DNA of 64,000 nucleotides from Escherichia phage Gostya9. The notes beneath the pieces were generated by a model. That model was not told where the DNA came from. It searched no databases and saw only the letters and a program-made list of their open reading frames with translations. The stretch lies in the sequence record NC_047979.1; one strand, given 5' to 3'. Numbering within the stretch: the stretch's first letter is position 1; the number at the start of each line of letters is the position of its first letter. Positions 1,359 to 54,121 of the stretch are shown one piece after another. The position numbers and the translations under genes are program-made.

Positions 1359-3023
1359 TTACGCGAAAAATTTGCCGTTTTTAAAGTCGATTAACGTGCG
1401 CTGCCCGTTCGCATATGTAATTACATGCGTTTGCGTCCAGCTTGATGCGCCCACGTTATAGCCCATGTCGAGGCTGCCCGATACGCCAGCAGTATATACG
1501 CCGCCGTAAATGCTGGCGGTATGGGTATGCCCCGTGTTTAATTTGCCCAACTTTTTAAACTGTTTCGGATTGCCACGACTCCCGTTAATGCCGTTGTGAC
1601 CGTGTACACCACACTCAATGCCTGCAATTTTAAATGATTGATCAGTGGTCAGGAAAATGGCGTTAAATTCACAACCTGCAACCTTACGTAGCGCATAATC
1701 AAGCACGTTGAAAGTATCGTCATTTTCTGCAATAGCTCCATAGATCGCGGCATTCAGGCGGTGATATAGTTCCGCGTTTGCTGGATCGTCTTTAATGTTA
1801 GCATTACGATCATCCAGCCAGCGAGATAGCGCCAGATCGTGGTTTGATTCAACGATGATTGTTTGCGAGAAATCGCGCTCCATTGATTCCAATACGCGGC
1901 CAGTATCAATGAGATCGTCCAGAACTTTATCACGTCCGGCGGCGTATTGTTTCGCTAGGAATACGCCCGATGCGCGGTTATGGTGGTTGCGTGATGTAAA
2001 GTCATGCACATCATGCACAAACTGATATTTTGGCTTGAGAATATCAAGCAAACTATTTTCGCCCGCCCATGACGCTGCGGCGCACGCCTTATCTAATTTT
2101 TCAGCGTGCACGTCGCCATACTGTAAACCTAAAACATGCCCCGATGTTTCATAGCATCCGGCGGGAGTGGCGCAAATATTCAAATCATAAAAAACGCCGG
2201 TTTCATCCATCGTCTCAAGCTGGCGAACAAAAAATGCCCCGTCCTCGTCGAACTCGACAATCAGCGCGCCAAAGTTATGTAACGCTTCGGCTTTTTGTCC
2301 TGCTTTCTGCTGAATGTAGTTTTTTAGCGTTGCCGCTCCCGTTGAGTACATACGGCGCACTACTTCACCTTTGAGCGCTGGGACACTTTCGGCGGTGATT
2401 TTTGCCGCTCCAATTGCCAGACCTTCAAGATCAAGCGCTGTTGCAGTCTCAGCGAATCCAGAAAGCGGATAGTCTGCCGTTGGCAAAACATTAATTTCAG
2501 CCATGAAAGCAAAGCGGCGATTATTTAAAAACACGTTTTTGCTGCAAATATATTTATCAAATACGGAGTCATATTTGATCCCGTCCGCGCCTTCTCCATT
2601 CTGGAATCCTTTTTTGTTATAAATGAACTTGCTAACCAGCAAATCAGCGCCGATAAATTGGGCGTAATGTTCAAGTGAGGCTAAAAAGTTTTTATGCGGG
2701 AACGTGTTGTTCTGGATTGATGTTATAATAAAGCGTTTACCCTGCTTTACTTCCCACTGTTCAACCGTGCTAGAAACAATACCCGCCGCCTCTGGGCGCT
2801 CGTCGTTTTTAATGGCTTTTTCTACTTTCGCCGCCTTTGGTTTCGCTGGTTTATTTGCTTCTAACCAATCACAGATCGCGGTGGAATGTTTTGTTGTATC
2901 GTACACCGCTTTTGATATATCGTCGCAGACTTCCAATCTAGTAGCGCGCAGACGTTTACCGTAAAAATTAAAATCAGCGGCCAGCTTCAGGATAACGGTT
3001 TGTTTTTCTGCGGAAATAACCAT
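1359..3023 (-). CDS. A1: A1-like pre-early protein with C-terminal metallophosphoesterase motifs
   Basis: 554-aa ORF; GVHGHNG and GHTHT phosphoesterase-type motifs near C-terminus; size close to T5 A1 as recalled (~556 aa). Confidence 0.75.
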   Translation of the reverse strand: MVISAEKQTVILKLAADFNFYGKRLRATRLEVCDDISKAVYDTTKHSTAICDWLEANKPAKPKAAKVEKAIKNDERPEAAGIVSSTVEQWEVKQGKRFIITSIQNNTFPHKNFLASLEHYAQFIGADLLVSKFIYNKKGFQNGEGADGIKYDSVFDKYICSKNVFLNNRRFAFMAEINVLPTADYPLSGFAETATALDLEGLAIGAAKITAESVPALKGEVVRRMYSTGAATLKNYIQQKAGQKAEALHNFGALIVEFDEDGAFFVRQLETMDETGVFYDLNICATPAGCYETSGHVLGLQYGDVHAEKLDKACAAASWAGENSLLDILKPKYQFVHDVHDFTSRNHHNRASGVFLAKQYAAGRDKVLDDLIDTGRVLESMERDFSQTIIVESNHDLALSRWLDDRNANIKDDPANAELYHRLNAAIYGAIAENDDTFNVLDYALRKVAGCEFNAIFLTTDQSFKIAGIECGVHGHNGINGSRGNPKQFKKLGKLNTGHTHTASIYGGVYTAGVSGSLDMGYNVGASSWTQTHVITYANGQRTLIDFKNGKFFA

Positions 3024-3375: not shown

Positions 3376-3792
3376 TTATTCACCTGCTGACTGTTTTACT
3401 TCATCTGCTACGCCTAGTAATTGCGCTACGGCGTCCAGCGTTTCTAATTTTGCGCTTTCCAGGCTTGCCAGATCGTCAGCGTCTTTGATAATGCCGGAAT
3501 CAATGGCGTGTTTTGCAATTACACGCACATAATGCGCCTTGCGGATTGAACTACCGCCGCCAACTTTGCGCGGTTTATCGCTTTTCTGATACGCTTTTGC
3601 GCTGGTCAATTTTGAGCGAACAGACACAGGGGAAGTAGCGCCCACTGTTTTGGCGATCTCTTTCAGGCCGTCGCTGTTGGCGAACTCAAGGCCGTTTTCA
3701 TTGATTAACTGCTGATACATAGAAACGGCTTTTTGGGTATTTTCTTCATTCCATGCAAATTTTGCGGATTTTTCGGTTTTAACGTTAGTCAT
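3376..3792 (-). CDS. putative HTH DNA-binding pre-early protein (possible A2-like)
   Basis: 138-aa ORF; helix-turn-helix-like segment LKEIAKTVGATSPVSVRSKL; conserved RBS context; A2 assignment is a guess. Confidence 0.45.
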   Translation of the reverse strand: MTNVKTEKSAKFAWNEENTQKAVSMYQQLINENGLEFANSDGLKEIAKTVGATSPVSVRSKLTSAKAYQKSDKPRKVGGGSSIRKAHYVRVIAKHAIDSGIIKDADDLASLESAKLETLDAVAQLLGVADEVKQSAGE

Positions 3793-6733: not shown

Positions 6734-6859
6734 AGCTATATATTTTCGCGGGTAATGTTGAGGCTGCAAATGATTCCGCTGGTGGCGATAACGTTCGCCA
6801 TTATTGGCAAAATTATATTTACTAGGCGTAATAATCACGGGGCACAACTATCAGGGAGT

Positions 6860-6892
6860 GCCCCTGATTCTCAAATGAGAATGATTCTCATT
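6860..6892. repeat. palindrome AAATGAGAATGATTCTCATTT
   Basis: perfect inverted repeat; related palindromes recur at 7355-7380, 7553-7575 and 7588-7615. Confidence 0.7.
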
Positions 6893-7095
6893 TGACCGCG
6901 CCCGCTATGGTTAGCCTGCTAATGATTAGGGTGTTACGTGTCACCTTGCGTGATCGTTAGCCTGCAAATGATTAGCCTGCAAATGATTTGACCGCGCCCG
7001 CGATGGTTAGCCTGCAAATGATTAGCCTGCAAATGATTAGCCTGCAAATGATTAGGGTGTTATTTGTCGCCTTGTGTGATGGTTAGCGGGCTAAC
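6889..7095. repeat. two copies of a ~75-100-bp direct repeat containing 15-bp subrepeats (GATTAGCCTGCAAAT)
   Basis: TTTGACCGCGCCCGC..GGTTAGCCTGC..AGGGTGTTA unit seen twice with 2-3 tandem 15-mers inside. Confidence 0.8.
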
Positions 7096-7213
7096 TAATT
7101 TTCAAGCCTTCTTCAATTTTGCCCTTGTTTTAGTATCCCCACCAAAATAAAACGCGTTAGAAAGCGATTCAGGGCGTTTTAGGCCTATATTAGAATTATT
7201 CACTGCGTAGGAA

Positions 7214-7233
7214 TACTGTATAAATATACAGTA
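7214..7233. promoter_or_regulatory. LexA (SOS) box-like palindrome
   Basis: TACTGTATAAATATACAGTA, one mismatch to the LexA consensus; exact reverse complement of the 19-bp segment at 5484-5502. Confidence 0.65.
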
Positions 7234-7242
7234 GAATAACCT

Positions 7243-7323
7243 GGGGATAAGTCGGTGGATAACGCTTCAAAATGGCTAGAATTTTGTCAAGGCAAATCGT
7301 GCTGTTGATAAGTCTGTGGATAA
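7243..7323 (-). promoter_or_regulatory. DnaA-box cluster, opposite orientation to the 5395 cluster
   Basis: TGTGGATAA perfect at about 7315; GGTGGATAA and weaker GGGGATAAG / TTGATAAG nearby. Confidence 0.55.
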
Positions 7324-7340
7324 CTTAAATAACAGTGTTT

Positions 7341-7620
7341 CTCACTTCCGTTTTTAAATGCGAATCATTATCATTTGCACTCCACTTCTTGAATAGTTCT
7401 CATTCCACTTCTTGAATAGTTCTCATTCCACTTCTTGAATAGTTCTCATTCCACTTCTTGAATAGTTCTCATTCCACTTCTTGAATAGTTATCATTCCAC
7501 TTTTTAAATGATAATCATTCCACTTCTTAAATGATAATCATTTCACTTTTTAAATGAGAATGATTATCATTCGCATTCCACTTCTTAAATGCGAATCATT
7601 CTCATTCGCATTTAGGCGAG
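7341..7620. repeat. 23-bp tandem repeat array (CCACTTCTTGAATAGTTCTCATT, about 9 units with variants) containing palindromic sub-sites
   Basis: five near-identical units followed by diverged units; embedded palindromes AAATGCGAAT..ATTCGCATTT. Confidence 0.85.
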
Positions 7621-7636
7621 CAGGGCAATTGCCCTG
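7621..7636. repeat. perfect 16-bp palindrome CAGGGCAATTGCCCTG
   Basis: read directly. Confidence 0.7.
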
Positions 7637-7643
7637 CGCTTAT

Positions 7644-8443
7644 GTGCAAATCCGACAATTGCTCCAAGGGTTACGCGTGGGCATGTATGTGCAAATCCGA
7701 CCCATTTTTTGGTAGTGTGCAAATCCGACCCTAAAAATTTATAAATTCGTGAGAGTGACGAATCTGTCTCCCAAAAACTCCAGCAATCACGAACTGCGTT
7801 CGAATCCTGTGGGGTATGTGCAAATCCGACACGGTTTTTCTAGGATTAAGATGTGCGAATCCGATGAAATTTTTGTGACTTCGATGAGAGGGTGTGTGAT
7901 TGTATAGGTTTGAGGAGAAGGTGAGAGAGCGGGAGAAATTTTGGGACTAGAAGGATGTGGGCGCAGGATTGGTGCGGAGCACCTGATTTGCGGGGGTTTT
8001 GGGGGATAGTTGAGGTAATTTGGGGAAATTTGAGATAGGTGCAGAAAAAGTAAAATTTTATTAGCTAAATGGGGCAAAATAGCTTGACGAGTGAAAATTC
8101 TTGTGGCTCTAAAAACTCAGGCAATCACGGGCCTTCGGCCCGAAATAATGCTGCCATTTTCAGGAGATTATATGTTCCTAAAAACTTAGGCGTTTGTGCA
8201 AATCCGACCATAAGTTTCTAGAAACACAATGTACAAAACCGACAGTAATTTCTGGGAATGTGTTTTCAAAAAATGTCTTCTAGAAATAACCGCCCTCCCT
8301 ATAACCGCCCTATATTAACCGCCTATGCTAGAGTTTCTAGGAACAATGAAAACTGCCCTAGAATTTGTGCAAATCCGATGAATATTTCTGTGTGATCTCT
8401 AGAATTTATACTTATCAATTTCCTAGAATATGTGCAAATCCGA
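7644..8443 (+). repeat. dispersed direct repeat family TGTGCAAATCCGA(C/T), at least 8 copies, same orientation
   Basis: copies near 7644, 7688, 7716, 7817, 7853 (variant), 8194, 8365 and 8430; frequently followed by a T-run; one extra copy inside CDS at about 10107. Confidence 0.8.
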
Positions 8444-8495
8444 TGAATATTTTTGTGTGATCTCTAGAATTTATGCTTATCAATTTCCTAGAAAC
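8358..8495. repeat. ~70-bp tandem duplication
   Basis: TGTGCAAATCCGATGAATATTT..TCTCTAGAATTTAT..CAATTTCCTAGAA present twice in tandem with 3 substitutions. Confidence 0.8.
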
Positions 8496-8891
8496 TTAGG
8501 AGTCTGCTAGAAAGTGTTGAGCCATCCTAGCAGATGAGCGGCAACCGGTGTATCATCTTGAACACAGATATTGCCTTTAAATTTTTTATCAGTTATTTTT
8601 AAATATAAGATCCCCCAAGGTTCTCATATAGAGCTTTGCCCCCGCCAGAAGGTCTCGTGATGTTTCTAGTAATCTTTATTAAATTACCTATTGACTTGTC
8701 CTGTCGCTCCGTAACCTACGCTACAAGTCAGTAATTTAAGATTCCTGAACCACCACACCTTCTGTGTGGCAACTCTAAATGGTTAATTCTATTAACTCAT
8801 AGAGTTATGATAACATACATTTAGCTATCTGTCAACGAGAGTTTGTATTATTGTCTCGGTACAGGTATTGTGCACCGAGACTTGCAGAGTA

Positions 8892-9776
8892 TTATAATAA
8901 TTCTTGGTATGCTTTTTGATACGCCTCAGTATCTGTAGGTGTACCTTTTGCTAACGCAATTAGTTCATCCGTTATCTGAATATTCGTATTATAACGTGTG
9001 TGGAACTCGTCAGGGATTTCTAGATATCTATTTATGAACGCTGCAGCAAGCGGTGAAGCTACACCCATTTCTAGAACCCATCCAACATGGTTTTCAAACT
9101 TCAGATAAGGGGAATCAGATGGGGTTGGTGGGGTTACATCAATTTTCTCTGGTTCTTTTTCTGGAAGCAATGGATTACTATATAATGCTTCATCTGGAAG
9201 CACAGATTTACGCTCTTTAAATATATAAGTTTCTAGATCAGATGCCTTAGATCCTGAGTACACAGCAAAAACGCTAGCTTTACCTTGTGATGCCCTAACT
9301 GGTAGATAACTAGTAGGATAGCTTCTTAATGCATCATGGAATGGACTTCCTGAATATTTGTACGTATCTCCATAGAGATCATCAATATTCATTCGTTCAT
9401 CTTCAAAAATGTGAAATGACTTAAATGGTGGAATGGTGAAGTACTCCATCTGTAATCCATAAACTAAGAAACGATGTGCATATGCACTGATTTTTAAGAC
9501 TGTGAATGCTTTTTCACCTTCTTTATGGGCATTGCCCTTTGAAGTAACTGGGTAACGTTTACAAAACATCTCTACTAGACGTTTCTCATTAATATTGAGT
9601 GAGGAATATAAACGTCCATTTAGCCCTATAAGTGCATCGAACATAAATGCTAGTTTATCTTTTTCTTCTTGGGTTAGTCCAGGAAACGGAAGTACTTTAG
9701 CATTAGGAACACTATTATTCTCTTTAGGTTTTGTTTTACCAGCATTTTGTCTTAGTTTATCTTTAAAGTTATACAT
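8892..9776 (-). CDS. hypothetical protein
   Basis: 294-aa ORF; GGGAG RBS upstream; no motif recognised. Confidence 0.55.
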   Translation of the reverse strand: MYNFKDKLRQNAGKTKPKENNSVPNAKVLPFPGLTQEEKDKLAFMFDALIGLNGRLYSSLNINEKRLVEMFCKRYPVTSKGNAHKEGEKAFTVLKISAYAHRFLVYGLQMEYFTIPPFKSFHIFEDERMNIDDLYGDTYKYSGSPFHDALRSYPTSYLPVRASQGKASVFAVYSGSKASDLETYIFKERKSVLPDEALYSNPLLPEKEPEKIDVTPPTPSDSPYLKFENHVGWVLEMGVASPLAAAFINRYLEIPDEFHTRYNTNIQITDELIALAKGTPTDTEAYQKAYQELL

Positions 9777-9793
9777 TATTATCTCCCATTTTT

Positions 9794-9828
9794 AAGGTCT
9801 GGATGACCTTCTTTTTATTTTAGAGCCT
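9794..9828 (+). terminator. rho-independent terminator-like hairpin oriented on plus strand
   Basis: AAGGTC-TGGAT-GACCTT followed by CTTTTTATTTT; a second hairpin GAGCCTC-CGTA-GAGGCTC lies at 9831-9849. Confidence 0.45.
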
Positions 9829-9853
9829 CCGTAGAGGCTCATGTATTAGAGGG

Positions 9854-10450
9854 TTAACTACCTCTCTTATCTTCATTAATAACAGCTCCTAGTGCCCCCA
9901 TAATTGCATCTTCTATACTTCCATGCTTACTAGGATTGCTTAAGTGAATAGTATATGAGTTCCTAGAAACTCCAGAGTCCACAGGCGCTACGCTTTTCAT
10001 ATCAGACTCAAAAGCTTCTTGAGTATGTTTCAATTGTGCAGAAGGTCCATAATCTTCCCCAAACTTATATGACTGTGTACTACTTACCGCACCCCCACAT
10101 GGAACATTGTGCAAATCCGATGGATTATTTAACAGTGCAATGCCACTTCTCGGCCACAGGTCACTAACATGGGTACTAGGACGGTTAACCTCAGTCTTCA
10201 CAAGTTTATAACCAGCATCGATCAGTGCATTAATAAGGTTATCAGCTGGAATGCGAGCCTTGCCGAAAATCTCACGAGCGTTGTTGAGCCTACCTTCAAA
10301 ACCTTTACATGCTCTAATATTAGTGTGTGCAAAGGTTAGCTTCATAGATTTGAATTGTACAGTAGCAGTTAAATCTTTAAAGCTATAATCCCACGTATTC
10401 AGTTCATGATCTGGTACTACTTGAATAGATTGTTGTGCATATAAAGTCAT
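9854..10450 (-). CDS. hypothetical protein
   Basis: 198-aa ORF; contains an internal copy of the TGTGCAAATCCGA motif. Confidence 0.55.
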   Translation of the reverse strand: MTLYAQQSIQVVPDHELNTWDYSFKDLTATVQFKSMKLTFAHTNIRACKGFEGRLNNAREIFGKARIPADNLINALIDAGYKLVKTEVNRPSTHVSDLWPRSGIALLNNPSDLHNVPCGGAVSSTQSYKFGEDYGPSAQLKHTQEAFESDMKSVAPVDSGVSRNSYTIHLSNPSKHGSIEDAIMGALGAVINEDKRGS

Positions 10451-10635
10451 TATTTATTCTCCAGTTTGTCTAACAGCTTATGAGCTGCTAGATTATATTG
10501 TTTAAGCTCACGGTTAAGGCTTTGGTTCTCACATTTTAACTCTAGATTCTCTTTATTAAGAAGATTGCAAATAAATAGAAGTGCTAGTATAACTAGCAGG
10601 GAACCTACAAGCATTAAAAGAAAAAGACTTTCCAT
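10450..10635 (-). CDS. small membrane-anchored coiled-coil protein
   Basis: 61-aa ORF; N-terminal hydrophobic segment then charged helix. Confidence 0.4.
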   Translation of the reverse strand: MESLFLLMLVGSLLVILALLFICNLLNKENLELKCENQSLNRELKQYNLAAHKLLDKLENK

Positions 10636-11075
10636 TATTTTATCCCCAGTCTTAGCTTTGAAAACTTATTATACCAAACTATATGATTATCGTCAATTAC
10701 AAATTTATGATAACATGCTGGTACGGTATAGGTTCCATAATCCGTGACACGCTGCACAACCTTGTGTGCGCACAGTCGACATCCATGCCCTTCTAAATGA
10801 GATCTAGCAGTTTGCCAGTAATAGCCCTCATGGTCTGGACAATAGATCTCGACTTGCTGTTGCATTGTTTTATAATTTACACGCTCATACCCAAAGAAAG
10901 CCCCATGAGCTGCAATGGCTTTCTTGATAAATATAAGGTTTAGTGCTTCTTGCTGGAAGTCGGGATGTAGCTGCTTAATCTTAGTTCTATTAATAGATCC
11001 ATCCGATTTGATGAACCTATTTATTGGAAAGTTGTTAGCTTCCTCGATTAATAATTCATTTACTTTCTCTCTCAT
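10635..11075 (-). CDS. Cys/His-rich hypothetical protein
   Basis: start reassigned to internal Met (MREKVNELL) 2 nt after upstream stop; CPDH..H..CRLCAHK cluster. Confidence 0.45.
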   Translation of the reverse strand: MREKVNELLIEEANNFPINRFIKSDGSINRTKIKQLHPDFQQEALNLIFIKKAIAAHGAFFGYERVNYKTMQQQVEIYCPDHEGYYWQTARSHLEGHGCRLCAHKVVQRVTDYGTYTVPACYHKFVIDDNHIVWYNKFSKLRLGIK

Positions 11076-50734: not shown

Positions 50735-51331
50735 ATTTATATTGAATTGAGAGACATTAGTAAAAATTGATTTTGCTAATTTTTCTTAGTGAAGCTGACA
50801 AGGGATTTACGGCGAGAGGAATCGATGACCCGTAAATAGCTGCATAAGGTACGTTGCTAGAGCTTTACGAAAAAGTTTTTTCTTGTTTACAATCCGCGAT
50901 ACGGAACAGTTAGGCTGCCCCATTAAGGGTTGTTTTAACTGTTACGTGTTAGTTTTTAAACAACTAATTAATAGAATACTTAGCGATCTGCGTCCCATAG
51001 GAACCCTGGTAAGGCCTCGAAGCAACCTAGTATGAGGTGGTTGTGAAGTGAGATGGGAGGAGTGAAAAACTACCGAGACGTGATTCTGTAAGTTATATTG
51101 CATCTAGTATGAGCTAGTATATGAAGCATTAGGTGAGCAAATCTGGCTTAGCGGCCATCCTCAAGGATTTGTGCGGTATAATGAGGCAGCAGCGCAGCGT
51201 GAAAGTGGAAGTTGCCACCCCACTTCAGTATTTGCAATTAATTTGTTGAGAAATTGACAGTAACAGTTGTTCTATTCTTTCTGAATAGTCCTAAAGAAAA
51301 CTTATTTCATTTCCAACACAGGAGTATTGTT
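50735..51331 (+). ncRNA. candidate structured non-coding RNA / long leader (function unknown)
   Basis: promoter-proximal; only tiny ORFs; multiple hairpins (ATTTACGG..CCGTAAAT, ACAGTTA..TAACTGT, CCC-ATTAA-GGG); higher GC than flanks. Confidence 0.35.
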
Positions 51332-54121
51332 GTGTTTTCAATCCTACAAGGTCATGCAGGATTTCATCGCGATTTAGCCACGGGCAATTGGCGAGAAGTT
51401 AAAGCAGAAGATTATCTTTTTGCTAAAAGATTTTCCTCAAAGCATCCTGAAGGTAAACCAGCTTCAATGCCCTTCAAGTTTGATGTAATTGACGAAGTTG
51501 ATCCTCAAACCCTAGTAGAAATGCTCCCTCTTATGAGACGTTTAACGTCTGACCCTCATATCGTTGCGGTACGAGGTCGATGTCTTGCACCTAAAAATAA
51601 TGTGCGGCGTAAGAAGGGCAACTTTAATGTATCTAATCCTAGTAATATTATTGCTATGGACGTGGATGGTATTGTAGATACAGGTGGTTGTAACAAGTTT
51701 GATCTTGTTGGCATGGCTCGACATATTATTAGGATGTTAAATAGTATTAGTGAGGATATGTTTCCTCTTGATGCAGGGTTTATTGCTCATGCATCGTCTT
51801 CGGCTGGGCTAAAACCAGGTATCCGAATGCACTTAATACTAGAATCTAATGTTAAAGTAACTCAGGGTCAAATCAAGTTCTTATTTACATCTATCAACGA
51901 AAGTAGTAGACAAAAGTATGGCTTTGATATTGCCGACTTAGCTTATTACTCTTCCGTACAGCTCCATTATTTTGCAGATCCTCTATTTATTGATGGTATA
52001 GTTGATCCGTTTAAAGCGGAGGGTGCTTCACGTCTGGTATTTGTTAAGGGTTCTAAAGTAAATTTACCTAATAATCTAGTTGACTATGAAACAACTAGAG
52101 GAGAGTTTAAAGAGGAATTCTACTCTTTACTCGATCAAATTAAAGGTAAAAAAGCTGCCTCTGATAAAGTAGAGGAAACTATCAGTGAGCTAGAAGAGGC
52201 TGATGATGGGGTATACTTACGTATTATTCCAAAGCTATATCACCGAGCGTTAGAGGATGGGGTAGATTTTGGTTGGCTAGAAAAAGAAATCCGCCCAGCT
52301 TTATCAGAATATATTGCAACTAAAGATAATAGCCGTAATATTCAAGACTACTTTAACAACGGTCGAAAACAGGCTCTGAAAGCATTTGTTAATAATTCTA
52401 AACGTGATATACCCGATGTTTTAAAAGGTATTCCGCTTAAAAAGCTAGAAACTAATTCACTAGAGACCGACAACTTCTTGAAATTAAATACTGTACCACC
52501 AGAAGGCTATATGACTTTTGTAAAAGCAAGTCTAGGTACAGGTAAAACCACGGCGGTTGTGCGTTGGCTGGATTCAGGAGTTATTAAAGGTAATTTCTTA
52601 GCAGTTACCAACACTAGAGCACTGGTATCTTCAAATGCTAAGAAATTTAGTGCAGGACAATACGATAAGTCTGTAGATATGCTTAATTTTAAGCGTGGTG
52701 CTATTGACCGTATGTCCACAACCATTCACTCTTTGCATAAGTTTAAGAGTTTTATTGGTCAAATTGATGCAATCTTTATAGATGAATGTGATGCAGTAAT
52801 GAATGACCTATTATTCGCCCCGGTTGTTAAGCAACGTCGTGAGTGTATTCAGGTTCTTCGTGATATTCTTGCAACTGCAAAAATCATTATACTATCCGAT
52901 GGTGATATTAGTGCCGAGACGATTGAAGCATATGGTTCTTTGATTGAGTTCGATAAACCAGTTGCATTCTATAATCATCACCGTAAGATGCTGTCAAAAG
53001 CTCATGCTTATGAGTTCCCTGATGAGTCCAGTATTTGGGTTGCACTTCAGACTTCTCTAGAGATGGGTGAGAAATCTATTCTAGTATCTGATTGTGGCCC
53101 TGATGAGCTGAATGAGAAGGGTATGGCACTACGTCGTAATACTGGTGCATTAGTTAAAGAAATCCATTCAAACTCCACTTCAGATGTGGATATTCGACGT
53201 ATTCTGGATTATACAACTAATGAGCTAATTGATCAACAAATTGATTGCTTATTATGTAGTCCATCCGTAACGAGTGGTGTTGACTTTAACTATTTCGATA
53301 ATGTATTTGTTATTACTAGAACCAGTAATCAGGCGCCAAACATGCGTTTTCAAGCAATCAGGCGCGACCGTGGTGCTCAGAATATCTATTATTTTATTGA
53401 TAAATCCACTAGTGGATTCTCTGCGGGTTCTGAACAATATAATATCGATGAAGGTTGGCTGGAGTTAGCACAGCAATTATATGCACGTCGCAGGGAGCTG
53501 GAGTCTAGGAACTATACTAGTACTTTACGTTATTACTTGCTTGATCAGGGTGCAACTATTGATATTTTCAGTGAAAGCTGGGGAACTATTGAAGGTGCTG
53601 GTAAAGAATACACAGAAGAGCGAATCAAAGCTATTCTACATTCAACTCCTGATTATTGTGCTCCACGTCATGCGGATGCGTATGAGGCTAAACTACTTAT
53701 TGTTCGCTATTATCATCTTGAGTCTATTAAAGATGTAACAGTTGAGCATGTTGAACAATATATCAAAGATAAGCCGAATGATCGAGCTGCATTCTTCCAT
53801 AAGATGCACGAGATGTTCTGGGAAGATATTAAGAAGTGTTCAAATGTGACCATTAAACCATTCATAGAAGCTCTGAAAGGTAAGAAGAAAGATTTCTTCC
53901 TTAAAACAGGTCAGAGTGCTAACCCAAAATATGCTAGAATGTATCTTGGTATGATGGGTATTGGTAAAGATATGAACACGGAGAATATCGTAGACTGGTA
54001 TAGAACCTACTGCAAAATCGAATGTATGCCAATTCCTTTCAAATTCATGACAGAAGAAGAGAAAGCTATGGCAGAAGAAGCAATGTCAGAGCTAGGTGCT
54101 AGAAATGACAGTGAAGAATAA
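51332..54121 (+). CDS. superfamily helicase-like protein (putative replication-origin-binding protein)
   Basis: GTG start 8 nt after AGGAG RBS (929 aa); Walker A GTGKTT and Walker B IFIDECD. Confidence 0.6.
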   Translation: MFSILQGHAGFHRDLATGNWREVKAEDYLFAKRFSSKHPEGKPASMPFKFDVIDEVDPQTLVEMLPLMRRLTSDPHIVAVRGRCLAPKNNVRRKKGNFNVSNPSNIIAMDVDGIVDTGGCNKFDLVGMARHIIRMLNSISEDMFPLDAGFIAHASSSAGLKPGIRMHLILESNVKVTQGQIKFLFTSINESSRQKYGFDIADLAYYSSVQLHYFADPLFIDGIVDPFKAEGASRLVFVKGSKVNLPNNLVDYETTRGEFKEEFYSLLDQIKGKKAASDKVEETISELEEADDGVYLRIIPKLYHRALEDGVDFGWLEKEIRPALSEYIATKDNSRNIQDYFNNGRKQALKAFVNNSKRDIPDVLKGIPLKKLETNSLETDNFLKLNTVPPEGYMTFVKASLGTGKTTAVVRWLDSGVIKGNFLAVTNTRALVSSNAKKFSAGQYDKSVDMLNFKRGAIDRMSTTIHSLHKFKSFIGQIDAIFIDECDAVMNDLLFAPVVKQRRECIQVLRDILATAKIIILSDGDISAETIEAYGSLIEFDKPVAFYNHHRKMLSKAHAYEFPDESSIWVALQTSLEMGEKSILVSDCGPDELNEKGMALRRNTGALVKEIHSNSTSDVDIRRILDYTTNELIDQQIDCLLCSPSVTSGVDFNYFDNVFVITRTSNQAPNMRFQAIRRDRGAQNIYYFIDKSTSGFSAGSEQYNIDEGWLELAQQLYARRRELESRNYTSTLRYYLLDQGATIDIFSESWGTIEGAGKEYTEERIKAILHSTPDYCAPRHADAYEAKLLIVRYYHLESIKDVTVEHVEQYIKDKPNDRAAFFHKMHEMFWEDIKKCSNVTIKPFIEALKGKKKDFFLKTGQSANPKYARMYLGMMGIGKDMNTENIVDWYRTYCKIECMPIPFKFMTEEEKAMAEEAMSELGARNDSEE

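What the first reader, a model, noticed from the sequence alone, without database searches (positions are those of the whole stretch)
7644..8443. Direct-repeat family TGTGCAAATCCGA(C/T), at least 8 copies in one orientation
A 13-14-bp motif recurs 8 or more times over 800 bp, always on the same strand and usually followed within 2-8 bp by a T-run. It is interleaved with CTAGAA-containing elements and a 70-bp tandem duplication, and one further copy lies inside CDS 9854..10450. This looks like an array of binding sites or pause/stop signals rather than coding sequence; it matches no promoter consensus I know.
Basis: seen in the sequence. Interest (0 to 1): 0.65.

Follow-up and report, generated by a model that had tools for sequence, protein, structure and literature searches.

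The report
T5 "direct repeat D" binding-site array
The repeated 14-base motif is real, but it is the already catalogued "direct repeat D" family in the non-coding injection-stop / terminal-repeat-junction region of T5-like phages: a conserved one-way array of probable protein-binding sites whose binder and exact job are still unknown.

Summary
The window holds nine copies of TGTGCAAATCCGAY (at most 2 mismatches) at 7643-8444, all on the + strand, and a tenth at 10108 inside a minus-strand gene. Chance would give about 0.7 in the whole window.

The window is the left end of a DT57C/T5-like phage. The motif is the annotated "direct repeat D" (DRD) of T5 Repeat Region 3, the "injection stop signal" region (GenBank AY587007 and AY543070; Davison 2020). 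No function has been assigned to it.

- The array is non-coding and is no promoter, hairpin terminator or known RNA.
- Motif columns are more conserved than their surroundings.
- The core GTGC-AAAT-CCGA recurs, on one strand only, in Klebsiella, Erwinia, Pectobacterium and Vibrio phages, and as variants in an Aeromonas phage.
- In the lineages where the site was read, the first copy sits just after a GCGC site; in T5 this is the major nick at 7.9%.
- In all five genomes with annotated termini, the array spans the right end of the terminal repeat.
- Variants differ between phage lineages, including two Vibrio phages.

Best reading (inferred, not shown): a polar array of sites for a phage-encoded DNA-binding protein. 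It would act where first-step DNA transfer pauses and restarts; A2 is the leading candidate. Terminal-repeat processing, an iteron-type origin and a polar barrier remain open.

It is a known element with modest novelty.

The parts
7643..7656 (+). DRD copy 1, TGTGCAAATCCGAC (exact). It starts 4 bp after the nick-type site CCCTGCGC.
   Evidence: homologous to T5 'direct repeat D copy 1'
7688..7701 (+). DRD copy 2 (exact), followed by a T6 run
7716..7729 (+). DRD copy 3 (exact)
7817..7830 (+). DRD copy 4 (exact), followed by a T5 run
7852..7865 (+). DRD copy 5, TGTGCGAATCCGAT (1 mismatch). It is the last copy inside the predicted terminal repeat.
8195..8208 (+). DRD copy 6 (exact), the first copy to the right of the predicted terminal-repeat end
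8230..8243 (+). DRD copy 7, TGTACAAAACCGAC (2 mismatches; the T5 copy at this position is exact)
8366..8379 (+). DRD copy 8 (exact, ...GAT), in the first unit of the 65-bp duplication
8431..8444 (+). DRD copy 9 (exact, ...GAT), in the second unit of the 65-bp duplication
10108..10121 (+). Stray DRD copy inside the minus-strand gene 9854..10450 (T5.019 homologue; phrog_5271, function unknown), antisense to that gene. T5, DT57C and EscoHU1 have a copy at the same place.
7620..7639 (+). Palindrome GCAGGGCAATTGCCCTGC (T5 'palindrome J') overlapping CCCTGCGC, the consensus of the T5 major nick sites. It is homologous to the T5 7.9% nick.
8040..8165 (+). Most conserved block of the region. By alignment to T5 position 10139, the predicted right end of the left terminal repeat falls after 8109 (...CTTGTGGCTC|TAAAAACTCAGG). 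A GGGCCTTCGGCCC hairpin follows.
8357..8486 (+). 65-bp tandem duplication (two units, 95% identical). Each unit carries one DRD copy and CTAGAA elements. T5 has a single unit, and DT57C has one DRD copy at this position.
7838..8493 (.). Cluster of about 9 CTAG(A/G)A elements interleaved with the DRD copies, mostly to the right of the terminal-repeat end
7241..7324 (+). Two 23-bp repeats (CTGGGGATAAGTCGGTGGATAAC and CTGTTGATAAGTCTGTGGATAAC), each holding a pair of DnaA-box-type sequences. They are homologous to T5 IRD'/IRC' and form the left flank of the same non-coding control region.
7355..7614 (+). 23-bp tandem repeats and AT-rich palindromes (the T5 DRC/DRE and palE-I region) lying between the DnaA-box pairs and the DRD array. 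This stretch is expanded relative to T5.

Best explanation
The motif is the 'direct repeat D' (DRD) family of the T5-type non-coding region at the junction of the left terminal repeat and the unique genome (Repeat Region 3, the 'injection stop signal' region).

Most likely each 12-14-bp unit (GTGC-AAAT-CCGA, usually with a T-run 4-9 bp downstream) is the asymmetric binding site of one small sequence-specific DNA-binding protein encoded by the phage. The one-way array would then load a polar protein coat on the roughly 0.8 kb of DNA that begins just to the right of the 7.9% nick, where first-step DNA transfer halts.

The role I favour is control of the pause and restart of DNA entry. In that reading the array is a landing pad for the essential pre-early DNA-binding protein A2 (with A1), which is needed for second-step transfer.

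Shown: identity with DRD, non-coding status, one-strand polarity, purifying selection, conservation across the family, and position relative to the nick and the terminal-repeat end.

Inferred: that the units are protein-binding sites, that the binder is phage-encoded, that it is A2, and that the process is transfer restart.
For: Identity and position:
- The same motif sits at the coordinates annotated 'direct repeat D copy 1-10' in T5 AY587007. The left part lies in the interval annotated 'injection stop signal' in AY543070.
- Davison 2020 lists nine DRD copies in Repeat Region 3 and assigns them no function.

Selection:
- Among 22 distinct arrays, motif columns are more conserved than the rest (0.966 against 0.854, p = 2.6e-9). 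The spacing pattern is also kept.

Conservation across the family, one strand only:
- Klebsiella Roth39 and GZ8, although only about 115 bp of the region still aligns by blastn.
- Erwinia KEY, the Pectobacterium My1-size contig, and Vibrio phi 3 and VF16, whose A1 proteins are only 32-34% identical.
- Variant GTACTAAACCGA in an Aeromonas phage.

Other points:
- The first copy follows a GCGC site in the lineages where this was read.
- Motif variants differ between the two Vibrio phages (CCGA against TCTA). That favours a co-evolving phage protein over a shared host factor.
- Copies can sit 13-17 bp apart, which implies a small monomer-sized footprint.
- A2 is, with A1, the only essential pre-early gene. 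It is a DNA-binding protein required for second-step transfer and has no known target.
- A2 homologues are present in all lineages examined. Its model is an all-helical protein with a helix-turn-helix-like N-domain.
Against: - No binding data exist, and nothing here links A2 specifically to the motif.
- The Proteus phage (Novosibvirus) keeps an A2 closer to T5's (41%) than the Vibrio A2s are (32-39%), with the same SVRxKL helix. Yet it has only one degenerate DRD copy beside the GCGC site, plus a different repeat family.
- The pause happens without protein synthesis, so a pre-early protein can explain the restart but not the stop.
- In T5 the array lies to the right of the estimated shear point. 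It may therefore not yet be in the cytoplasm during the pause.
- Stray copies in T5.019 and D13 have no obvious role in transfer.
- The fold matches for A2 are not significant (E > 0.7).
Confidence: 0.35

Rival explanations
1. Terminal-repeat end processing. The DRD array is the recognition or orientation platform (pac/cosB-like) for the packaging machinery. That machinery cuts or duplicates the right end of the long direct terminal repeat, with sub-arrays on both sides of the cut.
For: - In all five genomes with annotated termini (T5, EscoHU1, Klebsiella GZ8, Vibrio phi 3, Vibrio VF16) the terminal-repeat end lies inside the array, with copies on both sides. In the window the split is 5 left and 4 right of position 8109.
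- The block between the sub-arrays is the most conserved of the region and carries the conserved end ...CTGTGGMTC|TAAAAA.
- Known pac and cos sites use repeated small-subunit binding motifs near the cut (background knowledge).
Against: - No DRD copy lies at or near the left boundary of the repeat, which must also be cut.
- The five genomes represent perhaps two independent observations. The array fills about 40% of the non-coding gap in which the end must fall, so the overlap is weak statistically.
- The phi 3 end lies in a 107-bp duplication and is ambiguous.
- The left sub-array begins about 470 bp from the end, next to the nick site rather than the cut.
Confidence: 0.2
2. Iteron-type replication origin or nick-primed initiation site. 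DRD copies are iterons for a phage initiator, for example the UL9-like origin-binding helicase D2 (window 51254..54121). They sit next to DnaA boxes, AT-rich repeats and a strand-specific nick.
For: - The architecture resembles plasmid oriV: paired DnaA-box sequences at 7241-7324, AT-rich tandem repeats at 7355-7614, then clusters of same-orientation short repeats.
- D2 is proposed as an origin-binding initiator with an unknown site and is conserved across the family.
- DRD copy 1 abuts the 7.9% nick, and DRD copies 11-12 lie 368 bp from the 64.7% nick.
- T5 polymerase does strand displacement from nicks (annotation).
Against: - Spacing is irregular, not the roughly 22-bp iteron spacing.
- Cumulative GC skew has its minimum (origin-like) at about 45 kb and a local maximum at the array. 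This agrees with the electron-microscopy origins near the genome centre cited by Davison.
- Nicks 2 and 3 have no DRD nearby.
Confidence: 0.1
3. Polar barrier or termination zone. DRD-bound protein, or DRD plus T-run as a signal, stops RNA polymerase and/or replication forks. It would act at the point where rightward pre-early and leftward early transcription converge, insulating the terminal repeat.
For: - All copies share one orientation, and each is usually followed by a T-run.
- The array sits at the convergence of the two gene blocks and at a local maximum of cumulative GC skew.
- No intrinsic terminator is predicted on either strand in 6800-9000.
- A strong promoter-like site at 8835..8807 (-) points into the array.
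Against: - No hairpin precedes the T-runs, and the folds are not better than shuffles in 5 of 6 copies.
- The T-run is on the far side of the motif for a rightward polymerase, and too close to it for a leftward one stalled by a roadblock (geometric inference).
- In T5 the rightward pre-early operon already has annotated terminators upstream.
Confidence: 0.1
4. Host-factor sites. The copies are weak DnaA boxes (reverse complement ATTTGCACA against TTWTNCACA) or sites for another host protein. They would extend the DnaA-based injection-stop model.
For: - The match to the DnaA consensus is 8 of 9 in T5-type copies.
- True DnaA-box pairs lie 300-400 bp to the left, and Davison proposes that membrane DnaA binding causes the stop.
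- The stop needs no phage protein synthesis.
Against: - The information profile does not fit DnaA. The most conserved block, CCGA, lies outside the box. The 5' T is lost in the Pectobacterium and Vibrio phages. An A/G change at a critical box position is tolerated.
- Variants differ between the two Vibrio phages and again in the Aeromonas phage.
- Davison did not count DRD among the DnaA or DnaA* boxes.
Confidence: 0.06

Closest known systems
Direct repeat D (DR-D / DRD) of bacteriophage T5 Repeat Region 3 (GenBank AY587007 annotation; Davison 2020 bioRxiv 10.1101/866236)
   Same: Same consensus (TGTGCAAATCCGAC/T), same strand, and same order of flanking elements: DnaA-box pairs, DRC/DRE repeats, palindrome J plus nick site, DRD copies, terminal-repeat end, more DRD copies. 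The stray copy in the T5.019 homologue is also shared.
   Different: This phage has 9 array copies with one deleted position relative to T5 (T5 copy 4). It has an extra copy from a 65-bp duplication and one degenerate copy at 8230. Its terminal repeat is shorter, about 8.1 kb against 10.1 kb.
T5 injection stop signal (iss), the cis-acting region where first-step transfer halts (AY543070 feature 9140-10149; Heusterspreute et al. 1987 as cited)
   Same: The five left copies lie in the interval homologous to the annotated iss. The region is non-coding and rich in repeats and palindromes.
   Different: The iss is defined functionally and has never been mapped to a motif. Davison places the likely stop element (IRD'-spacer-IRC' and DRE) to the left of the DRD array. 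Four copies lie beyond the annotated iss and beyond the terminal repeat.
Iteron clusters of plasmid or phage replication origins (e.g. RK2 oriV); background knowledge
   Same: Clusters of short same-orientation repeats lie next to DnaA boxes and AT-rich repeats.
   Different: The spacing is irregular, no initiator is known to bind, and GC skew and published origin mapping point elsewhere.
Repeat arrays at packaging sites (P1 pac hexamers flanking the cut, lambda cosB R sites, T7 SRL/SRR repeats beside the terminal repeat); background knowledge
   Same: Short repeats flank a genome-end cleavage position.
   Different: The repeats are at only one of the two repeat boundaries. No terminase binding is known.

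Membership tests
T5 direct repeat D (DRD) | Consensus TGTGCAAATCCGAC, 14-15 bp | tested here: met
   Seven exact and two near copies in the window. The same pattern hits exactly the ten annotated DRD coordinates in T5.
T5 direct repeat D (DRD) | Nine or more copies, all direct (one strand), in the untranslated region after palindrome J and the 7.9% nick, running past the end of the left terminal repeat | tested here: met
   Base-by-base alignment to T5 9150-10900. The terminal-repeat end maps to window 8109, with 5 copies to its left and 4 to its right.
T5 direct repeat D (DRD) | Extra copy inside the T5.019 homologue | tested here: met
   Window 10108-10121 in ORF 9854..10450. This corresponds to T5 copy 10 in ORF019.
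Injection stop signal (iss) | Cis-acting site at which first-step DNA transfer halts in vivo | not testable with these tools
   This is a functional definition. Only positional homology to the annotated interval was shown.
DnaA box | Match to TTWTNCACA, with conservation concentrated on the 9-mer | tested here: not met
   The match is 8 of 9 at best. The information peaks at GTGC and at CCGA (outside the box), and the flanking T is not conserved across the family.
Intrinsic (rho-independent) terminator | G+C-rich hairpin immediately followed by a U-run | tested here: not met
   No terminator-like sites in 6800-9000. Five of six units fold no better than shuffles. T-runs are present.
Sigma-70 promoter | -35 and -10 hexamers with 16-18 bp spacing overlapping the motif | tested here: not met
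   None of the 10 promoter-like hits overlaps a DRD copy.
Iteron-type origin | Regularly spaced same-orientation repeats beside DnaA boxes and an AT-rich unwinding element, bound by an initiator | tested here: inconclusive
   Orientation and neighbouring DnaA-box pairs fit. Regular spacing does not. The GC-skew minimum lies elsewhere. Initiator binding cannot be tested here.
pac/cos terminase recognition array | Repeats adjacent to the terminase cut and bound by the small subunit | tested here: inconclusive
   The terminal-repeat end lies inside the array in 5 of 5 annotated genomes. No copies lie at the left boundary. Binding cannot be tested here.
T5 major nick site | CCCTGCGC-type consensus, shared by all major nicks | tested here: not met
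   DRD lies beside nick 1 (+4 bp) and 368 bp from nick 4, but is absent near nicks 2 and 3. DRD is therefore not part of the nick consensus.
Genome-wide polar motif (Chi/KOPS-like) | Many copies spread over the genome with strand skew | tested here: not met
   Outside the array, T5 has only 3 copies with at most 1 mismatch. Sub-motifs in the window show at most a weak + strand excess on small counts (e.g. 5:2, 6:3), not a genome-wide skewed distribution.
Known RNA family / tRNA | Rfam or ARAGORN match | tested here: not met
   Only two sub-threshold Rfam hits (E 0.5-0.9), neither coinciding with the motif family, and no tRNA.

The most novel reading that the evidence does not exclude
The conserved unit is a module of a GC-rich palindrome, a GCGC nick site and a one-way DRD array. 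It is kept from Vibrio and Aeromonas phages to coliphages. It would be the landing pad of a phage protein (A2, possibly with A1) that grips the DNA emerging at the pause point and restarts second-step transfer. That would give the first sequence-level handle on the T5 two-step injection problem. The same complex might also mark the right end of the terminal repeat for end processing.
Probability: 0.25. Interest if true: 0.7.

Novelty: already known. Interest (0 to 1): 0.33.

Why it matters
How T5 stops after injecting 8% of its genome, and how A1 and A2 restart transfer, is still described as poorly understood in 2026 papers. The DRD array is the most repeated asymmetric motif at that spot and one of the region's most conserved elements.

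This work adds three points:
- The core motif and its one-way layout persist across distant genera of the family.
- Variants track phage lineage, not host.
- The array begins at the nick site and spans the terminal-repeat end.

Together these turn a catalogued repeat into a concrete target for binding and mutagenesis experiments. As a sequence feature it is not new.

Tried and rejected
- **Coding repeat.** Rejected: copies fall in all frames, stops are frequent, and indels are not multiples of three.
- **Promoter, hairpin terminator, Rfam RNA or tRNA.** Rejected.
- **Part of the nick-site consensus.** Rejected: nicks 2 and 3 lack DRD.
- **Genome-wide skewed motif.** Rejected.
- **DnaA box.** Judged unlikely from the information profile.
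- **Selection on the copy inside the T5.019 homologue, from synonymous sites.** Too few sites to be informative. Many alignments break exactly at the motif.
- **Covariation of A2 with the motif.** Not informative. The Proteus phage keeps a T5-like A2 but almost no DRD copies.
- **A2 structure and fold search.** The model is confident and helical, but there is no significant PDB match.
- **Phages outside the family that carry A1.** The A1-like gene of Dinoroseobacter phage R5C sits among structural genes, and no motif array was found in the 50 kb read.
- **Literature search for the motif string.** No hits.
- **Davison 2015.** Could not be read.
- **TAACCGCC as a motif shared by both ends.** Suggestive, but the 7-mer is too short to be significant.

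Full report
**1. The observation**

Reading 7300-8900 and searching TGTGCAAATCCGAY with up to two mismatches gives 12 matches in the window. Chance would give 0.71, and the largest of 100 shuffles gave 3.

- Nine matches lie between 7643 and 8444, all on the + strand: seven exact, 7852 with one mismatch and 8230 with two.
- An exact tenth copy lies at 10108-10121, inside the minus-strand ORF 9854..10450.
- Eight of the nine array copies are followed, 4-9 nt after the 14-mer, by a run of three to six T. Only 29% of positions in the same non-coding stretch have such a run (p = 3e-4).
- The 'tandem duplication' is 65 bp, at 8357-8421 and 8422-8486.
- About nine CTAG(A/G)A elements are packed into 7838-8493.

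The region is not coding. Copies fall in all three frames, and each of the six frames has 8-22 stop codons. Ninety per cent of indels among 22 related arrays are not multiples of three.

**2. What the window is**

Window position 1 aligns to T5 position 44, and the first 12 kb match T5-like phages throughout. The closest relative over the array is phage DT57C, at 94%. The window is therefore the left end of a Tequintavirus.

It holds the pre-early genes dmp, A1 (1359..3023) and A2 (3376..3792), followed by the long untranslated region and then the leftward early genes.

**3. What the motif is**

In the richly annotated T5 record AY587007, the homologous bases are labelled 'direct repeat D copy 1' to 'copy 10', and the motif search hits exactly those coordinates. 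Two more copies (11 and 12) are annotated inside gene D13.

The second T5 record labels 9140-10149 'injection stop signal (iss)'.

Davison's 2020 preprint names the family DRD. It counts nine copies in 'Repeat Region 3' and says this region is conserved among T5-like phages. It also states that the functions of these repeats cannot be guessed. His candidate stop element is the DnaA-box-bearing IRD'-spacer-IRC' plus DRE repeats, which lie to the left of the DRD array.

Papers from 2023-2026 still describe the stop signal only as a repeat-rich non-coding region with an unknown mechanism. The motif string itself occurs in no searchable paper. The feature is therefore known and named, but its function is not known.

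**4. Anatomy in this phage**

A base-by-base alignment with T5 gives this order:

- paired DnaA-box-type repeats (7241-7324);
- 23-bp tandem repeats and AT-rich palindromes (7355-7614), expanded relative to T5;
- palindrome J overlapping CCCTGCGC (7620-7639), the counterpart of the T5 7.9% major nick;
- DRD copies 1-5 (7643-7865);
- a highly conserved block holding the predicted end of the terminal repeat (after 8109, ...CTTGTGGCTC|TAAAAACTCAGG);
- DRD copies 6-9 (8195-8444), interleaved with CTAGAA elements;
- the early genes.

**5. Conservation**

An exact-match scan of viral contigs finds arrays of three or more copies only in contigs of about 96-122 kb, the size of T5-like genomes. Most other hits are single.

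Thirty-four distinct arrays show a nearly fixed spacing pattern of 46, 26, 31, 81, 25, ~343, 35, ~137. In an alignment of 22 of them, motif columns are more conserved than the rest (0.966 against 0.854 major-allele frequency, p = 2.6e-9).

The motif outlives the surrounding sequence:

- **Klebsiella phages.** Only the ~115-bp terminal-repeat-end block still aligns by blastn. Yet 8-12 copies are present on the same strand, including a run with a 27-bp period.
- **Erwinia phage KEY.** Eight copies, plus three strays on the same strand.
- **The 122,024-bp contig of Pectobacterium My1 size.** Ten copies (AGTGCAAATCCGAY) at 17/27-bp spacing.
- **Vibrio phages phi 3 and VF16.** Their A1 proteins are only 32-34% identical. 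They carry 10-12 copies of GTGCAAAACCGA and GGTGCAAATTCTA respectively.
- **An Aeromonas phage.** Four copies of GTACTAAACCGA-type variants.
- **A Proteus phage (Novosibvirus).** This is the exception: one degenerate copy beside the GCGC site, and an array of a different repeat.

A logo over 78 distinct copies shows two strong blocks, GTGC and CCGA, joined by an A-rich spacer. In the lineages where the site was read, the first copy follows a GCGC site within a few bases.

**6. Polarity and position**

In T5, all 12 copies with at most one mismatch are on the + strand. The minus-strand near-hits are mostly tRNA T-arms.

In the five genomes with annotated termini, the right end of the terminal repeat falls inside the array. 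The five amount to perhaps two independent observations, and the phi 3 end is ambiguous.

DRD is not part of the nick consensus, because T5 nicks 2 and 3 have none nearby. It is not a genome-wide skewed motif either.

**7. What it is not**

- No promoter-like hit overlaps a copy, and no terminator-like hairpin exists in 6800-9000.
- There is no Rfam family and no tRNA.
- Five of six units fold no better than shuffles.
- The resemblance to a DnaA box (8 of 9) does not survive the logo. The best-conserved block lies outside the box, and the flanking T is lost outside the enterobacterial phages.

**8. How it most likely works**

An asymmetric 12-14-bp unit can be packed as closely as 13-17 bp. 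It is always in one orientation, is under purifying selection, and varies with phage lineage even between two Vibrio phages. This is best explained as the binding site of a small phage-encoded protein that coats this stretch head-to-tail. That much is inference from sequence.

Which protein and which process is less certain. I favour the pause and restart of DNA transfer, for four reasons:

- The array begins 4 bp from the nick that marks the 7.9% boundary.
- Its left part is in the annotated iss.
- In T5 it lies immediately to the right of the estimated first-step endpoint (about 9618), so it would be among the first DNA drawn in when transfer resumes.
- A2 is, with A1, the only essential pre-early gene. 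It is a DNA-binding protein required for the second step and has no known target.

A2 has homologues in every lineage examined. Its predicted fold is helical with a helix-turn-helix-like N-domain, though the fold matches are not significant. The Proteus phage is evidence against A2 as the binder: its A2 is conserved but its DRD copies are almost all lost.

**9. Rivals**

- **Processing of the terminal-repeat end.** The end lies inside the array, but there are no copies at the left boundary.
- **An iteron-like origin or nick-primed site for the UL9-like helicase D2**. The architecture fits. The spacing, the GC skew and published origin mapping do not.
- **A polar barrier at the convergence of pre-early and early transcription**. 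The orientation and T-runs fit. The geometry and the lack of hairpins do not.
- **Host DnaA.** The conservation profile does not fit.

None of these can be excluded without binding or mutational data.

**10. Verdict**

The element is already known as DRD of the T5 injection-stop / terminal-repeat-junction region. The added value here is threefold:

- the breadth of its conservation;
- the lineage-specific variants;
- the constant pairing with the GCGC site and the terminal-repeat end.

Interest is modest for the finding as such. It would be higher only if the motif proves to be the handle by which A2 or another phage protein controls two-step injection.

Noticed in passing
window 7355-7614: A 23-bp tandem repeat (CATTCCACTTCTTGAATAGTTCT, about 5 near-identical units) is followed by variants holding palindromes such as AATGATAATCATT and GAGAATGATTATCATTC. 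By my own comparison these resemble the Fur-box consensus GATAATGATAATCATTATC (about 15 of 19). The block is about 57 bp longer than in T5. T5 uses the Fur-regulated receptor FhuA, so a Fur link might be worth testing.
   Followed up: partly
window 8287-8325; T5 L003 35-48; left ends of L137, L138, L139: (T/A)AACCGCC(C) occurs three times about 180-215 bp to the right of the predicted terminal-repeat end. A similar CTAACCGCC / ATTACCGCC lies 35-50 bp inside the left genome end of T5 and the Vibrio phages, and a looser AAACGCCCC in Klebsiella GZ8. It could be a motif shared by the two end-cutting sites, but the 7-mer is too short to be significant on its own.
   Followed up: partly
window 7838-8493; L138 8302-8459; L143 5170-5357: A second motif family shared across genera is built on CTAGAA/TAGAAT. 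There are about 9 sites in the window, six or more AAAATGCTAGAAGTGA units in Vibrio phage phi 3, and about ten GAATAATAGAATGGTGGG units in the Proteus phage.
   Followed up: partly
window 8040-8165: This is the most conserved block of the whole untranslated region and the only part still found by blastn in Klebsiella phages. It holds TTGACR, then the predicted repeat end ...GTGGCTC|TAAAAACTCAGG, then a GGGCCTTCGGCCC hairpin. It is likely the end-cleavage site itself.
   Followed up: partly
window 7632, 20146, 30256 (+ strand): CCCTGCGC recurs at the positions homologous to T5 major nicks 1, 2 and 3. Each is followed about 25-45 nt later by a TTAC(G/A) element, so the nick signal may be bipartite.
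   Followed up: partly
window 8807-8835 (- strand): A strong sigma-70-like promoter (TTGACA, 17 bp, TATCAT with an upstream TG; 11 of 12 matches) lies downstream of the last early gene and points leftward into the DRD array. The stretch is identical in T5, where no promoter is annotated at the corresponding place.
   Followed up: no
window 7773-7791 and 8111-8129: A 19-bp repeat, AAAAACTC(C/A)(A/G)GCAATCACG, is each time followed by a short hairpin. The second copy starts right at the predicted terminal-repeat end.
   Followed up: no
window 10108-10121 and homologues (L003, L135, L136, L124-L133): In many related phages, sequence similarity within the T5.019 homologue breaks off exactly at the stray DRD copy, as if it marked a mosaic boundary. 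Several phages carry TGTGCATATCCGA there, the same variant that Klebsiella arrays tolerate.
   Followed up: partly
T5 L142 1220-1249 (AY587007 79019-79048): A tandem pair of DRD copies spaced 15 bp apart lies inside the D13 (SbcC-like) gene of T5, 368 bp to the right of the 64.7% major nick. This is outside the window, and its conservation in other genera was not checked.
   Followed up: no
window 26066, 28301 (- strand): The DRD core GTGCAAATCC differs by one base from the tRNA T-arm sequence GTTCAAATCC of the phage's own tRNA genes. This is probably coincidence.
   Followed up: no
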